A stretch of 64,000 nt of DNA from Octopus vulgaris. Lineage: Eukaryota. Within the stretch, counting starts at the first letter, position 1. Every line of letters begins with the position of its first letter. Made by a program: the position numbers and the translations under genes. The notes under the pieces were generated by a model. The model saw nothing but the letters and a program-made list of their open reading frames with translations, did not search any database and had not been told where the DNA came from. The DNA is taken from the NCBI GenBank assembly GCA_951406725.2, contig OX597815.1:118296001-118360000 (forward strand), given 5' to 3'. Of this stretch, positions 5,701-54,812 are shown one piece after another.

Positions 5701-6059
5701 CTTCTGTCCTGTGAAATATAATACCGTGTAGTTGTTACGTAACCATACACGTCAAACTTTAATTTTGTTGCAAGCCGGATGTTTAAGAATGCTAGTACGA
5801 ATAATTCGTAACACGCAATAACGTATGACTTGGTAGAATGTATCATGCTTTCACCTATTATTTTAGGTAACTGTATAGTGTCGAGTAGACATAGACAACC
5901 TCTCAGACCACAACCTCACTTGACACAGAGGAACATCGAGGATGAAAGTAAATAGCTGTGCCAACACTCTGTCTGTAAATGTGTATCAAACACACACACA
6001 CACAAATATATATATATGTATAGACACGCATGCATACACACAAATGCGCATACCAAACT

Positions 6060-7714: not shown

Positions 7715-7924
7715 ATGCATGTATGTATATGAAATAATAGTTTCTTTAATTGGATCTCGAAGTAAATACAATTCTATAAAAATAGCATATTAGTTTGAAA
7801 AACTCTTTTGGGTAGCAAAAATCAAAGGCTTCTCTCTAGAAGGGGTTTTCAACTCAATATTTCTTCTGATGTCGTCTATCAATCATGTATGTATGTATGT
7901 ACGTACGCATGTATGTATGCATGA

Positions 7925-8522
7925 ATGATAACATATCATAATAATATATGCACTCAGATTTAAAGCGTTTTTTTTTATATAAACAACTGACTGAAAAATG
8001 ATGAGCTAACCCAAGCCAGAATCGAACCCACATATCAACGCTATCACGGCTCCATGTGCATCCGATTGGGCCAAACGTTCACCCATCAATTTCAGCCAAA
8101 TTTTATGAATATATACTTTAAGTCTCCAATACTATATATAATATTTCAAAACAAACCCGAAGGTTTTGTAAGTTTCGGAGATAGAGCGACTATGGAAGCC
8201 ATTTAGTACAACAATAACTTCGGGTTTGTTTATAGATATTATATGTAGTATTGGACAGTTTAAGTATATTCATAAAATTTGGTTGAAATTGATGGGTGAG
8301 CGTTTGGCTCTATCAGATGTACATGGAACCGTGTTAGCGTTAATATGTGGGTTCGATTCTGGTCTGGGTTAGCACGTCATTTTTCAGTCAATTGTTTATA
8401 TAAAAAATGTCGCTTTAAATCGGAGTATATATATTATTATGATATATTATTATATAGTTATTATTGTACTAAGAGACTTTCATAGTTGCTCTGTCTTCGT
8501 AACTTATAAAGCCTTCGGGTTT
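7925..8522. mobile_element. Head-to-head pair of a ~295-nt unit with tRNA-like Pol III promoter, copies circularly permuted
   Basis: 7925-8162 is the reverse complement of 8219-8455, and 8160-8219 is the reverse complement of 8456-8518. A box TGGCCCAATCGG and B box GGTTCGATTC are present. Confidence 0.8.
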
Positions 8523-8571
8523 ATATATATGTGTGTGTTTGTGTGTGTGTGTATATATATATAGAGAGAGG

Positions 8572-10170
8572 AGAGAACGAGAAATGCTTAGAGGAACAAA
8601 TGCCACTATACCAGGTCTTCATAGATTTAACTAAGGCATTTGACACGGTAAACAGAGAGGCACTGTGGATTGTTTTGTGTAAACTTGGTTGCCCAACACA
8701 TTTTGTGGGCATCTTTAAGGAACTACACAGAAACATGAAAGCTCAGGAATTTTCAGTAGACAATGGTGTCAAACGGGGAGATATTCCTACCCCTATACTT
8801 TTCTCTATTTATTTTGCAGCATTGCTTTGGTATGCTTTCAAGGATTGCAACAGGGGAATTGGAATCAGATTTCGGACATCTGGTCGTATTTTTAATTTGA
8901 TCCGGTTTAATTGCAAAGCAAAGACTTTCAAAAGACTTGTTAGAGAATTACTTTATGCTGATGATGCTAATTTGTTGGCACACTCAGAGGGGGATATGCA
9001 ACATTTAATGGACAGATTTTCCACTGCATGTGTACATTTTGGACTCACAATTAGTCTTGGGAAAACCAAAATAGTGTTTACTCCCGTGCCAGGACAAAAA
9101 TATTCTGAACCTAATATGTGAATGGAACAAGGTTAGAAGTCGTTAACACCTTTGTTTACCTAGGAAGCACACTGTCAAAAGATGGTAATCTTGATGTAGA
9201 GATATATTATTAAATAGGGAAGGGAAGTGTTGCATTTGGAAAGCTAGAAAAGCGAGTATGGGCGGAAAGAGGTATTTCCCTGTAGACAAAAATCGGTGTC
9301 TATAAAGCGTGTGTATTGTCTGCACTTCTTTATTCAAGTGAGACATGGACCACTTACAAGCGATTTCATGAAAAGTGTATCAGACGTATCTTAGGAGACA
9401 AGTGGGAATGTTTTATACTAGATACAGAGGTTTTGCGCATGGCATGTTGCAGTTCAATTGAACAACATGTTATCTTGGTTAAAATGAGATGGACTGAACA
9501 TGTTATTAGAATGAAATACGAGCATTTGCCAAAGAGTCTTTTTTATGGTAAGCTCAACTTTGGTAAGCGACCACAACATAACCCGAGGAAAAGGTATAAA
9601 GACTATGTGAAGGAAAACCTAAAGAAACTAGATATGAACAAAAGTGATTGGGAAAATGATGTTCTAGATCGGAACAAGTGGAAAGGTGCTGTTAGGACTG
9701 GTTGCAATGCCTGAGAGGAAAAGATGATTTAGCACTCTGAATTTCAAAGAGCCTCTTCCAAAAGAACAATTGGAACTGTAATCAACAGGGAACATTGGAT
9801 ATGTATTATATGTGACAGTGTTCTGTTGTCAAAAGCAGGATACGTGAATCATATGAAGTCACATGAAAATCGTAATGTCCTGATAGGTAATGATCTTGGA
9901 CACCAACTGCCTCTTACGACTTGAGTCGAATGTCAAAAAACTTTAGGACAATGTGTGGACTTAAAAGACATATGCTAGTTTACAATAACATTCCTTTAGA
10001 ATCGGAAGAAACTTGAATAATATGTCATTTGTGTTTTAAACCCAGTCAAACAGCAGCTGGTGTTAAAAGTTATCTAAGGGCTCATCAACGGAGTCATTGT
10101 ACTGTGGGATGGAGTGTGGTTTGTATATTGATGGGGCGGTTATCATCTGTCAAGATGAAGCAATCATCAT
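8572..10170 (+). mobile_element. 5'-truncated, frameshifted RTE-clade (BovB-like) LINE
   Basis: RT motifs FIDLTKAFDTVNR, GVKRGD and LLYADD, followed by LLYSSETW and RWTEHVIRM, C-terminal CCHH fingers and a 3' tail into microsatellite. Confidence 0.92.
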
Positions 10171-14984: not shown

Positions 14985-15750
14985 TGTTTGTGCGTGTGTG
15001 TTTGCGTACGTGTGTGTGTGTGTGTGTGTGCGTGCGTGTGCGTGTGTGTGTAAGTAATTATTTGGTGTTTGGGTACATGTCTATTAGTATGCCGAATAAA
15101 GCACATTCACCGTTTGGGCTAACTGATGTCATCCGCTGTTACGGTATAGTTTTCATTGGATCTACGGTAGGAATTACGCAGTGTTCGTTTGGTTTATAAA
15201 TAATGAGGGGAAACGGGAAATTGAATTGGTACAAATTTTTATTCAACACCAATCTTTATTCAAAGATTCGTATCAAATCCATTTTCCGTTTCCCTTATTT
15301 CCCTCATCAATAATATATATATATATATATACAAATTGAGATAGGGGTTGTAAATGCAACCCTCCATGGGATAACATATATCCAATATACTGCTAGTGAA
15401 GTACCCAACAAAGTTAATACATAAATGTTAATGACTGCGATGCAATCAATTCATTTACTGTATTATATGGGCAAAGGTAAAATGATTTACCACAAATTAC
15501 TAATACAAGATAAGAAAATGGAGAAATACATCTAAATCAAATATCAATTACACGATAATACTCAATCACATACTTTATAAAACCACCACATAAGAGACTG
15601 TAGGGTTACATATAAAAAGCAGAACAAATCAGTGTACATACAGTAGTGTACATAAAAAAGTGTACATAAAAGAGTAATGATGTATAATAAGTAGAATATA
15701 TATAAAAGAGAATATAAATATAAGTAAATATAAATATAAGTATAGATTAT

Positions 15751-15877
15751 ATCTTACAGCTGTTTCGGCCATGTAGATAAGTATGTCTCATTTTACCAAT
15801 ATTAGCCTTATATGGTAGGTCAATATATAGATATAAATGAGACATTTACAAAAATATCATAAGGCCTCTTCGGAGAT
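15751..15877 (-). ncRNA. Hammerhead ribozyme variant (CCGAAGA core, extended stem II), copy 1
   Basis: Reverse complement of the motif at 16717-16843. Confidence 0.7.
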
Positions 15878-16716
15878 TATGTAATATAAATCAGTCTACA
15901 TATATATCCACATGGGTGTGGGTACATACCCATAATACAACATATACATATACATATGAGTGCATATACTCACACTCCTATACATATAAAACATAATGAT
16001 ATAAATAAATAATATAAATTAGTAAACATATATATGTTCCACATTCAACCTCTCAGTTTTTCGACTTAATATTGTGATAATAAACATACACATATTAGTA
16101 CCTAGATGCAAATATACATAGGCAATAGTACATTATATTACTTCATACTAATTTCTAAAGTGTCATTGAAGTTAGCATCATTATCGTTGTCAATACAATA
16201 AATGTTACCATTATTATCATTCATAATATTATTAATAACGCTTACATTAGTAATTTTAGTTAGTAATTTTCTTTATGACATAAGGAAAATTACTAACTGG
16301 AACCCGGACATACTTATGTGCCAATCTGGATCCTAATGTAAGCGTTATTAATAATATTATGAATGATAATAATGGTAACATTTATTGTATTGACAACGAT
16401 AATGATGCTAACTTCAATGACACTTTAGAAATTAGTATGACGTAATATAATGTACTATTGCCTATGTATATTTGCATCTAGGTACTAATGTGTGTATGTT
16501 TATTATCACAATATTAAGTCGAAAAACTGGGAGGTTGAATGTGGGACATATATATGTTTACTAATTTATATTATTTATTTATATCATTATGTATATGTAT
16601 ATTTTTATATGTATAGGAGTGTGAGTATATGCACTCATATGTATATGTATATGTTGTATTATGGGTATGTACCCACACCCATGTGGATATATATGTAGAC
16701 TGATTTATATTACATG

Positions 16717-16843
16717 ATCTCCGAAGAGGCCTTATGATATTTTTGTAAATGGCTCATTTATATCTATATATTGACCTACCATAAAAGGCTAATATTGGTA
16801 AAATGAGACATACTTATCTACATGGCCGAAACAGCTGTAAGAT
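16717..16843 (+). ncRNA. Hammerhead ribozyme variant (CCGAAGA core, extended stem II), copy 2
   Basis: atct CCGAAGA GGCC [~92 nt rod] GGCC GAA ACAGCTGT A agat; stem I atct/agat, palindromic stem III, predicted GUA cleavage after 16839. Confidence 0.7.
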
Positions 16844-17088
16844 ATAATCTATACTTATATTTATATTTACTTATATTTATATTCTCTTTTAAATATATTC
16901 TACTTATTATACATCATTACTCTTTTATGTACACTTTTTTATGTACACTACTGTATGTACACTGATTTGTTCTGCTTTTTATATGTAACCCTACAGTCTC
17001 TTATGTGGTGGTTTAATAAAGTATGTGATTGAGTATTATCGTGTAATTGATATTTGATTTAGATGTATTTCTCCATTTTCTTATCTTG

Positions 17089-17119
<31 letters not shown>

Positions 17120-51201: not shown

Positions 51202-52200
51202 TCTTTATATATATAAAACTAAGAATGTGTGTGTGTCTGTCTGTCTGTCTGTGTGTTTCCCTAAAACTTGAGAACTACACAACCAATTTCATTCAAATTT
51301 TACACATGCCTTACTTAGGGTCCGGGGAGTGTCATCGGCAAAAAAAACTTTGAACTTTTTGCCTAGGACGAGCCCACAGCAATATCATATCTTCTCCACT
51401 ACGATTCCCTAAAACTTGAGAACTACACAACCAATTCCATTCAAATTTTACACATGCCTTACTTAGGCTCCATGTAGTTTCATGGGCAAAAAAAATGTTC
51501 AACTTCTTGCCTAGAGCGAGCTCATAGCAATATCATATCTTCTCCACTATTTCAGTATTACGTGTTAAAAGTGAAACAAAAACGTTTCTTTATGTCAGAT
51601 ACTTTCACTTTAACAATAAAAATAATGATAATTGAATTATATGTAGTAAGTAATAATTAAAATCAAACTAAAGTATAATATAATCGTTACATAAAAAAGG
51701 TAAAAATAGCAATTGGTATAAAATTGCATCAGTGATTTGAACTTGAATAAGTGGTTTCACATGAATGGGAATAAATTAAAAATAAAATTAGCGTGCAGAA
51801 ATGGAATAGTCCAGATGGATAATAAAAAATTAAATTAAAGAAAAGACTATTGTCTATAAAGTATACAATGTAGAGAAAAAAAATTTGAACACATGGAGGA
51901 AAGCACCTTCGAAAAGTGTCTTGGTGCGACTATGAAAGGTATCAAATCAGAGGCGGTAAATTCGCCACAATAGAAGCAAGGTTCGAGTCAACGGAGCGTG
52001 CAAGGGAGTACTCGACTCGAACTTGCAAAGTGGAATATTTCATTTTTACCTTTATAACTGGGACGTAGGACGTCCCGGAAAAAAATTTTAATGCCCCCCC
52101 CCCGAAGTAGAGGTAGGCTGGATTGTAGCCACACTTCTATAGAAGAGGGAGGACAAGATACAATTGATCGAAATTACAAGACGGGCTAACAATTCCAGTC
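51202..52200 (+). mobile_element. Helitron-like element with ~147-bp internal tandem duplication
   Basis: A|TCTTTATATATATAAAA followed by (GTCT)n; 51257-51403 is repeated at 51405-51552. The 3' end is degenerate and uncertain. Confidence 0.6.
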
Positions 52201-53509: not shown

Positions 53510-54812
53510 ATTTCAGGACATGAACGCTTCAAAACTGACTCCATCACCAAGGCCACACACCTGGTACTAAAGGAAAACACCTTTAGATTCGATAATAAAA
53601 CATATCGGTAGATAAAGGGCCCGGCTATGAGGAGGCGGTTTGCACCCTCATATGCTAACCTAGTCATGATGTACTTGGAAGAAAAGGTTTATGAAGAAGT
53701 AGAGAGAGCTTTTAATTAGGATTACAATAAATACATCATTGAAAAGTGGAAACGCTTCCTCGATGGCTGCTTCATTTTTTGGGGACAAATCAAATGAGAA
53801 CCTACAAATATGTAATAATATACTCAACACACTTCACCCATCCATCAAATTCACGACAGAATCCAGTTGCAATGGACTGCCATTCCTGGATATTCACATA
53901 AAAATTCACAACTACACAGTCATATTTTATAAGACATATTTTACAAAAAAAAAAAAACCGGACACGCAACCAATATTTGAGCTTCTACTCTTGCCATCCT
54001 TCCACATCAAAAGGAACATCCCATACAGCATGGCAAGACGTATCTGTATTGTAGTGATTGACCCCAAAATACGTCAAATCCAACTCAACGAGTTCAAAAT
54101 CTTCCTAACAAAGCAGAAACACCCCTTGTGATTAATAAACGATGGAATTAAAAAAGCAATGAAGCTGAACATCGCATAGCTAAGGATACCAAAGGAAAAA
54201 ATTAATGAAAACACAATTCCATTTATCAATATGCACAATCCTGAGGAAGCCAACATTTTTCACATCATAAACTCAAACTTATCTATACTTCTACAAATCC
54301 TCAAAATTAAAGATCTGATTGACAACAACCACTTACGAAACGGTGGACGCCAAACGTAAAGCTCAAAAACTACCTCACAAGAGCAAAATTCATATCAGAG
54401 AATGAATCAGAATTCTCCGTAAAAGAATGTAGTGATAACAGCTGTGGAAAATGCAACAACAACGACTTTAAATACTTAGAATGGGTTCCCACATAAAATC
54501 CAAGAGCAGATTCTCATTCAGAGTAAATGCAGATATGAACTGCAAGATGCAGAATCTTATATACTGTACTACTTTCCCCAACTACAAGGAAAATTACATT
54601 GGCAGAACAAACAATTCCCTCTGCCAACATGCAAGAATCCACGGACAACGCTTCCGACAAGAGGAATTGTGCAAGATTCCACTGGTGAAGGAAAATTCAA
54701 AATCTTTCCCTTTTACAAATCTTCAAGCTATGACCTAAAATTATGGACAGCAATGGAGCAACATCATCAAAAAATTCTCTGCAAAATTAAATGTTTGGAA
54801 GAGAAGCAGGGG
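53510..54812 (+). mobile_element. Degenerate Penelope-like element: RT C-half, thumb, GIY-YIG endonuclease
   Basis: APSYANLVM, WKRFLDGCF, LNTLHPSIKFT..LPFLDI, HIKRNIPYSMARRI, C..CGKC, NLIYC...YIGRT, with several frameshifts. Confidence 0.88.

What the first reader, a model, noticed from the sequence alone, without database searches (positions are those of the whole stretch)
7925..8522. Two inverted copies of a ~295-nt unit that are circular permutations of each other, with an internal tRNA-like promoter
Seen: the + copy reads A(8219-8455) then B(8456-8518) and restarts TTCGGGTTT, while the - copy reads B then A. Segment A holds a tRNA-like block (A box TGGCCCAATCGG, B box GGTTCGATTC) in mid-unit rather than at a 5' end. 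B has at best a very degenerate hammerhead-like frame (TTGTA..CTAA..CGAAAC.TACAA). Inference: a circular or tandem RNA template carrying its own Pol III promoter, a SINE/retrozyme hybrid integrated with a PLE-style inversion.
Basis: partly seen in the sequence, partly recalled or inferred. Interest (0 to 1): 0.75.

Follow-up and report, generated by a model that had tools for sequence, protein, structure and literature searches.

The report
Ribozyme-free Penelope passenger with tRNA promoter
This is one old copy of a several-hundred-copy, 295-base non-coding repeat that often sits in back-to-back pairs ending at two fixed points of its unit, likely pasted by a Penelope-type jumping gene from a tandem or circular RNA, and unusual in carrying tRNA-type promoter boxes in mid-unit but no hammerhead ribozyme.

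Summary
The two arms belong to an old, dispersed 295-nt family (roughly 460+ copies; median 84% to the family majority). At 164 sites, 5' ends scatter round the unit, but 222 of 263 3' ends fall at two AT-rich sites about 80 nt apart. 81 of 263 pieces exceed one period; none exceeds two. Inverted neighbours are head-to-head in 84 of 85 cases, and the two arms end at different sites in 42 of 52 classifiable pairs. These are Penelope-like-element (PLE) hallmarks, and a Neptune-type PLE of this genome shows the same two-end layout. A/B boxes (spacing 45) and a T5 tract are real but lie inside a long plus-strand hairpin; copies do not start there. Best reading: a non-autonomous PLE passenger, retrozyme-like without ribozyme, a PLE counterpart of tRNA-bearing TRIMs (Helenus). 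A circle, Pol III use and the partner enzyme are not shown. The scan noted twin-ended PLE passengers with hammerheads in this genome before, but not this sequence.

The parts
7925..8219 (-). Left arm: unit 238->235, 0.99 period, 3' end at AT-rich site H2
8218..8522 (+). Right arm: unit 295/1->9, 1.03 periods, 3' end at the edge of site H1, running into (AT)n/(GT)n
8218..8219 (.). 5'-to-5' inversion junction with 2 nt shared by both arms
   Evidence: gap -2; sequence
8062..8073 (-). A box of the left arm (unit 87-98)
8019..8028 (-). B box of the left arm (unit 132-141), 45 nt from the A-box start
7994..7998 (-). T5 tract (Pol III terminator-like; function inferred) of the left arm
7987..8099 (-). 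Predicted long hairpin (unit 61-173) enclosing A box, B box and T5, left arm
   Evidence: fold of the family majority; 106/127 covariation
8153..8219 (-). Segment B plus small terminal hairpin at the 5' start of the left arm; hammerhead-like frame without catalytic core
8305..8316 (+). Decayed A box of the right arm
8350..8359 (+). B box of the right arm
8380..8384 (+). T5 tract of the right arm
8279..8391 (+). Predicted long hairpin (unit 61-173), right arm
8423..8471 (+). AT-rich site H2 (unit 205-253), read through in this arm; one of the family's two 3'-end sites
8464..8522 (+). Segment B and small hairpin between sites H2 and H1: the ~80-nt 'tail' present on one arm only
7884..7927 (.). 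(TATG)n-type microsatellite flanking the left 3' end
8523..8562 (.). (AT)n/(GT)n microsatellite flanking the right 3' end

Best explanation
The locus is one back-to-back insertion of an old, non-coding 295-nt repeat whose copies end at two fixed AT-rich sites, likely reverse-transcribed by a Penelope-like (probably Neptune-type) enzyme from an RNA holding more than one unit in tandem or closed as a circle. Steps: (1) shown: copies are windows cut from an endless unit, 5' ends free, 3' ends at H1 (mode 29) or H2 (mode 243). (2) Inferred from PMC11167929 and PMC8557442: the PLE nicks both strands of a (TA)n-type target and starts reverse transcription internally at two sites; the stretch between them (segment B plus a small hairpin) is the PLE 'tail', here about 80 nt rather than 30-40. 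(3) Inferred: both nicks prime on the same RNA or RNP, one at each site, and the two cDNAs join 5'-to-5' through a few shared bases, so the apparent circular permutation is just two arms of about one period ending at different sites. (4) Least certain: the tRNA-type boxes gave source copies their own Pol III promoter with leaky T5 read-through (about 45%); a covalent circle (about 35%) is allowed but not needed. No hammerhead takes part.
For: 3' ends: 222 of 263 pieces in 26% of the unit; windows were set on the first 26 sites, then 142 of 167 in held-out sites and 42 of 53 in a set picked by an exact 18-mer. Head-to-head 84 vs tail-to-tail 1; arms ending at different sites 42 vs same site 10, p 3e-6 against independence (8 vs 1 in the 18-mer set). 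81 of 263 pieces exceed one period. Arms of one locus agree at subfamily sites in 161 of 206 comparisons (78%), tandem periods 106 of 139, different loci 48% (first 62 loci). 3' flanks alternate purine/pyrimidine in 96 of 180, against 22 of 177 at 400 nt and 17 of 89 at lone 5' ends. The genome holds RT + C-terminal GIY-YIG PLEs; family A ends at two sites about 35 nt apart with a hairpin between them, and its proximal end shares the 11-mer TTTACAAATAT with site H1; family C has an inverted pair with the tail on one arm only. Plus-strand RNA fold: z -2.8 and -2.2 in two runs vs about 0 for the minus strand; A-T/T-A exchange at 106/127 is the top covariation of 1830 pairs and stacks on a predicted helix, repeated in later sets (43 of 58; 17 of 23).
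Against: No extended homology to any sampled PLE end; the 11-mer is short and AT-rich, and only Neptune-type families were sampled, so the partner is unidentified. The 80-nt tail is twice the published length. In the newest BLAST-picked set the mixed/same split was weak (11 vs 5, p 0.11). The single-template 'blocking' signal (H1-arm 5' ends just past H2: 22 of 34 vs 7 of 34) did not repeat in the 18-mer set (4 of 8 vs 4 of 8). The window's own arms agree at only 9 of 16 subfamily sites. No piece reaches two periods (max 1.81) and no source array was found among 40 scored of 826 candidates, which a freely rolling circle would not predict. BLAST ends in AT-rich tracts are imprecise, and 77 of 210 5' ends also fall in H1/H2, so some pile-up is alignment or microhomology. 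T5 and the lack of 5' ends at the Pol III start speak against a plain Pol III template.
Confidence: 0.77

Rival explanations
1. A true SINE/retrozyme hybrid: Pol III multimers are cut by a ribozyme in segment B (degenerate hammerhead or an unknown fold) and circularised.
For: Unit size, low GC and tandem layout match animal retrozymes (PMC7229834). A relic frame (5-bp outer helix, one-base-short CUGANGA-like strand, 4-bp inner helix, GTAA) scored as well in only 8 of 1000 shuffles, with a descriptor written after seeing the sequence. B lies just upstream of a 3' end, as the hammerheads of PLE families A and C do.
Against: 0 of 89 B segments has CTGANGA or TTGANAA, 4 of 89 have GAAA; the inner helix is broken in a large subfamily; no intact core in any order in five majorities; no Rfam ribozyme hit at E up to 10; no pile-up of 5' ends in B.
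Confidence: 0.07
2. The unit is only the pseudo-LTR of a coding PLE, left as truncated ends (as an earlier scan note concluded for another tRNA-headed repeat of this genome).
For: Same end architecture as coding PLEs; lead e1-8669850.
Against: Unit is joined directly to unit in 81 of 263 pieces; 89 lone 5' ends share no common upstream sequence (5 adjacent pairs, scattered over different start points); only 1 of 131 sites lies beside a Neptune ORF. Only three Neptune-type proteins were used as probes.
Confidence: 0.07
3. A non-autonomous Helitron/Helentron-type DNA element copied by rolling-circle replication, giving partial tandems in AT-rich DNA.
For: Partial tandems, a small hairpin near one end and a long internal inverted repeat are features I recall from such elements (from memory, no call).
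Against: Two alternative 3' ends, head-to-head pairs at 84:1 and free 5' ends fit PLEs; the fold is strand-asymmetric and uses many G-U pairs, which points to RNA. Helitron termini were not tested directly.
Confidence: 0.06
4. An ordinary tRNA-derived SINE with a one-off local rearrangement.
For: A/B boxes at tRNA spacing.
Against: Copies do not start at the tRNA part (9 of 263 near it) and the inverted two-ended layout recurs 84 times.
Confidence: 0.01

Closest known systems
Endonuclease-positive Penelope-like elements, Neptune/Naiad type, and non-autonomous Chlamys elements such as MRC1 (PMC8557442, passages read; PMC11167929, parts 1-2 of 4 read)
   Same: Partial tandems, inverted 5'-truncated neighbour, tail on one end only, (TA)n targets; two internal RT start sites explain the tail; the hammerhead is dispensable for insertion in vitro, and Naiads lack a canonical one.
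   Different: No ORF, no clear homology to a partner's 3' end, tail about 80 nt, internal tRNA-type boxes inside a long hairpin.
Animal non-LTR retrozymes (PMC7229834, passages read; bioRxiv 10.64898/2026.07.22.740005, parts 1-3 of 5 read)
   Same: About 300-nt, low-GC, non-coding unit in tandem, structured on one strand, proposed PLE mobilisation.
   Different: No hammerhead, the defining feature; no dimers or longer arrays found; carries A/B boxes and T5.
Schistosoma Sm-alpha / Sj-alpha (PMC2770079, passages read; Ferbeyre 1998 not held; its Pol III transcription is recalled, not read)
   Same: tRNA-derived, SINE-like repeat; shows that a 'SINE/retrozyme hybrid' is itself already known.
   Different: Sm-alpha has an active hammerhead; this family has none, and its tRNA part is not a head.
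TRIMp3 elements Helenus, Ajax, Cassandra (PMC10886601, abstract, sections 3.5 and 4 read)
   Same: Short non-autonomous retroelement with a tRNA-derived A/B-box block inside its repeat, proposed to arise by SINE capture.
   Different: Those ride LTR retrotransposons (LTRs, PBS, PPT, 4-5 bp duplications); this one has PLE-type free 5' ends and two 3' ends.

Membership tests
Non-autonomous PLE | Partial head-to-tail tandems | tested here: met
   81 of 263 pieces >1 period, max 1.81
Non-autonomous PLE | Inverted 5'-truncated copy adjacent at the 5' end | tested here: met
   84 head-to-head vs 1 tail-to-tail
Non-autonomous PLE | Two alternative 3' ends (tail on one end only) | tested here: met
   222 of 263 ends at two sites; 42 mixed vs 10 same pairs; offset about 80 nt, longer than the published 30-40
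Non-autonomous PLE | Insertion bias to (TA)n-type microsatellites | tested here: met
   96 of 180 vs 22 of 177 controls
Non-autonomous PLE | 3' sequence shared with an autonomous partner | tested here: inconclusive
   only an 11-mer shared with Neptune family A; other PLE clades not sampled
Non-autonomous PLE | Mobilisation by a PLE protein | not testable with these tools
   needs an in vitro TPRT assay
Non-LTR retrozyme | Type I hammerhead in each unit | tested here: not met
   0 of 89; none in any order (where 5 of 9 control loci gave a hit only under the relaxed rule); Rfam blank
Non-LTR retrozyme | Two or more complete tandem units | tested here: not met
   0 of 263 pieces >2 periods; dimer-length query found no array (40 of 826 candidates scored)
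Non-LTR retrozyme | Circular RNA in vivo | not testable with these tools
   no run on record as RNA
tRNA-derived SINE | A and B boxes at tRNA spacing | tested here: met
   spacing 45; 2 of 20000 shuffles; B box exact in 77 of 204 periods, 120 allowing CpG decay
tRNA-derived SINE | tRNA part forms the 5' head where full copies begin | tested here: not met
   9 of 263 5' ends at unit 70-90, 18.7 expected
tRNA-derived SINE | No Pol III terminator inside the body | tested here: not met
   T5 in 148 of 204 periods, T4+ in 182
tRNA-derived SINE | Identifiable parent tRNA or SINE | tested here: inconclusive
   best tRNA Arg(TCG) z 3.5 among the distinct ARAGORN calls on 30 loci; with the B box held fixed no tRNA or SINE-head cluster exceeded z 1.4; ARAGORN finds no tRNA in the window
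tRNA-derived SINE | Pol III transcription | not testable with these tools
   needs bench work
TRIMp3 (Helenus type) | Two LTRs with fixed termini | tested here: not met
   free 5' ends, two 3' ends
TRIMp3 (Helenus type) | PBS, PPT and 4-5 bp target duplication | not tested
   not searched; flanks are microsatellites
Helitron/Helentron | Fixed termini and A|T or T|T target | tested here: inconclusive
   no fixed 5' end; target rule not testable without empty sites

The most novel reading that the evidence does not exclude
A ribozyme-free circular-RNA retroelement: a captured tRNA-type promoter, folded into a rod-like RNA, makes Pol III read-through multimers that host enzymes cut and close into 295-nt circles; a PLE dimer then primes both target strands at two sites of one circle. 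This would be a Pol III-driven PLE 'SINE' class (the PLE counterpart of TRIMp3) and would show that retrozyme-style spread needs no hammerhead.
Probability: 0.18. Interest if true: 0.75.

Novelty: new variant of a known kind. Interest (0 to 1): 0.44.

Why it matters
It separates the parts of the retrozyme model: a retrozyme-sized unit spread with the full PLE footprint without a hammerhead core, in line with the in vitro result that PLE insertion does not need cleavage (PMC11167929). The paired use of two start sites in one insertion gives genomic support for a dimeric, two-strand PLE priming step, which PMC8557442 calls undefined, and the 295-nt unit is a minimal template to test it. An internal tRNA-type promoter in a PLE passenger did not turn up in nine literature searches. 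Limits: the family is old, low in copy number and probably dead, and may sit unnamed in repeat libraries that I did not see.

Tried and rejected
Rfam scans of the region: only hairpin/AT-rich miRNA models below threshold. ARAGORN: no tRNA in the window. Hammerhead_1 search of the genome: 6 loci, none similar to the unit. Twister, HDV-like and hairpin-ribozyme readings of segment B were considered by eye from recalled consensus only and dropped; not formally tested. First any-order hammerhead descriptor missed all four controls and was rerun with relaxed rules (5 of 9 control loci hit, some at doubtful pairings); split-core hits are uninformative (79 of 150 shuffles gave one; one subfamily gave one of similar score). 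The firmer negative is that no [CT]TGA of the majority continues as N-G/A-A (site lists). Lack of other T4 runs in the unit is not significant (1906 of 20000 shuffles). Local 70-nt folds are unremarkable. A 5'-end excess at the small hairpin is weak once first-query loci are removed (14 vs 7.5 expected of 200, p 0.02). Parent tRNA/SINE not identified. Sequencing runs: no RNA holder listed; contigs of X1-X4 hold relatives, and one deep X1 contig matches unit ~42-190 at about 82% with both boxes altered, but X1 is only guessed to be RNA, so no claim on expression. No look-alike in earlier scan notes by sequence. The mutual-blocking test for a monomeric circle did not replicate.

Full report
Observation. 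The window lies in G000, a 2.8-Gb microsatellite-rich animal genome (probably a cephalopod, my inference). Self-comparison shows two inverted arms. With unit position 1 set at window 8219, the minus arm 8219->7925 runs 238->235 and the plus arm 8218->8522 runs 295/1->9, with 2 nt shared at the junction. Both 3' ends point outward into microsatellites. No other copy lies in the window.

The family. Five DNA searches and one exact pattern search of G000 plus fetched stretches gave 131 sites picked by BLAST and 33 picked by an 18-mer. Each BLAST search scored only 40 candidates, so the sample leans to long, well-kept copies. I dropped overlapping loci and four near-duplicates (L024, L294, L312, L334); one duplicated pair in L289 stayed in the count. 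The 18-mer has 115 exact hits and is present in 44 of 176 sampled periods, giving roughly 460 copies, probably an underestimate. Median identity to the majority is 84%, maximum 92.5%: the family is old. At least four subfamilies exist.

Ends. Of 263 pieces of 60 bits or more, 91 end at H1 (unit 9-36, mode 29), 131 at H2 (205-253, mode 243) and 41 elsewhere, many of those at later insertions. The windows cover 26% of the unit and were chosen on the first 26 sites; held-out sites gave 142 of 167 and the 18-mer set 42 of 53. 5' ends are spread round the unit, with some excess at the same AT-rich sites (77 of 210). 81 of 263 pieces are longer than one period, none longer than 1.81; a 1.5-period query returned no longer array. 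Adjacent inverted pieces are head-to-head 84 times and tail-to-tail once; of 52 pairs with both ends classed, 42 use one site each and 10 the same site (p 3e-6). The subset added alone was weaker (11 vs 5). Arms of one locus share subfamily alleles more than random copies (78% vs 48%), though the window's pair is among the poorer (9 of 16). So the 'circular permutation' here is two arms of about one period that end at different fixed sites.

The likely enzyme. These features match PLEs as described in PMC8557442 (passages read: partial tandems, inverted 5'-truncated copy, 30-40-nt tail on one end, (TA)n targets, non-autonomous Chlamys forms) and PMC11167929 (parts 1-2 of 4: both strands cut and extended, RT starts at two internal sites that bound the tail, hammerhead mutants still insert). 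G000 holds GIY-YIG elements in abundance, including a young family with a 781-aa RT + C-terminal GIY-YIG frame and a CX4CX2C linker, i.e. Neptune/Nematis type. By eye, 10 distinct family A loci end at a proximal site and 5 about 35 nt further, past a small hairpin; the proximal end shares TTTACAAATAT with H1. Family C shows an inverted pair with the tail on one arm. Beyond this there is no homology, so the partner is not identified. The unit is not simply a pLTR: 89 lone 5' ends share no upstream sequence and 1 of 131 sites neighbours a Neptune ORF.

The tRNA-like block. A and B boxes start 45 nt apart; such a pair arose in 2 of 20000 shuffles. A T5 tract follows about 20 nt behind the B box in 148 of 204 periods, placed like a tRNA gene's terminator (own knowledge). 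No parent tRNA or SINE could be named. The block does not fold as a cloverleaf but lies inside a hairpin from 61 to 173, whose outer helix pairs sequence upstream of the predicted start with sequence at and behind the T5. The 106/127 A-T/T-A exchange is the strongest of 1830 column pairs and the only complementary one in the top 22, while sites between them are not linked to it; copies are related, so this may reflect few events. The RNA that was copied therefore included both sides of the block. Only 9 of 263 5' ends lie at 70-90 (18.7 expected), and the longest copies begin upstream of that point. A simple Pol III transcript cannot be the template; read-through multimers, host transcripts across a tandem copy, or a circle can.

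The ribozyme. Prompted by earlier scan notes on rewired hammerheads and PMC10085705 (abstract read), I searched all strand orders: nothing with an intact core, with weak controls. A relic frame scores above most shuffles (8 of 1000, post hoc descriptor), but its inner helix is broken in one subfamily, so descent from a hammerhead is possible and activity unlikely. An unknown self-cleaving fold cannot be excluded.

Circle or not. For: free permutation, rod-like plus-strand fold, no source array found. Against: a ceiling below two periods, and the predicted mutual blocking of two primers on one circle, seen in the BLAST set (22 of 34 vs 7 of 34), was absent in the 18-mer set (4 of 8 vs 4 of 8). 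Coding PLEs make partial tandems from linear multimers, so a circle is not required.

Comparison and novelty. It works like an animal retrozyme or a non-autonomous PLE, but fails retrozyme membership (no hammerhead, no dimers) and SINE membership (no head, internal terminator). tRNA-derived repeats with hammerheads are known (Sm-alpha; PMC2770079, passages), as are tRNA blocks inside LTR passengers (Helenus; PMC10886601, abstract and two sections). PLE origin of retrozymes is argued in bioRxiv 10.64898/2026.07.22.740005 (main text read; supplements closed). PMC7229834 (passages), PMC4209133 (part 1 of 4) and PMC13282606 (part 1 of 3 and passages; its repeat library was not seen and could hold this family) were also consulted. 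Nine searches (listings only unless named above) showed no ribozyme-free, tRNA-box PLE passenger; Repbase and Dfam were not available. Earlier notes of this scan report twin-ended hammerhead retrozymes and a tRNA-headed pLTR in the same genome, unchecked by me except as stated. Verdict: real; new variant of a known kind; interest 0.44.

Noticed in passing
window 15503-17091: A 1.6-kb near-perfect palindrome (arms 98-99% complementary, 82-nt centre), apparently a young foldback or MITE-like insertion.
   Followed up: no
window 53525-54792: Decayed Neptune-type PLE (RT to GIY-YIG, closest to sampled family B) ending in (ATT)n.
   Followed up: partly
window about 8580-9900: Decayed LINE-like RT fragment right of the finding, RTE-like by eye; not tested.
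   Followed up: no
window 51257-51549: Two tandem copies of a 148-nt unit at 89%.
   Followed up: no
L121-L124 (e.g. L123:2342-4687 ORF, 5780-5830 ribozyme): Very young Neptune-type PLE family with many identical-length 781-aa frames, an upstream ORF, 3' UTR repeats holding CCAAT/TGACGTC-like motifs and a U3-A8 variant hammerhead; a good source of an active PLE protein.
   Followed up: partly
L126:4428-5000, L133, L134: Neptune family B has a 290-330-nt tandem duplication in its 3' region with a degenerate hammerhead-like stretch.
   Followed up: no
L198, L199, L202 (about 1500-1610): Hammerheads with a very long stem II insertion, in head-to-head inverted context.
   Followed up: no
L236 and L280, unit position 7-9: Two independent later insertions split the unit at the same place in the small hairpin.
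   Followed up: no
run X1, record 3 (window 7970-8118): A 368-nt contig of depth 420 matches the hairpin region at about 82%, with paired changes at unit 97/136 that remove the B-box C; run type only guessed.
   Followed up: partly
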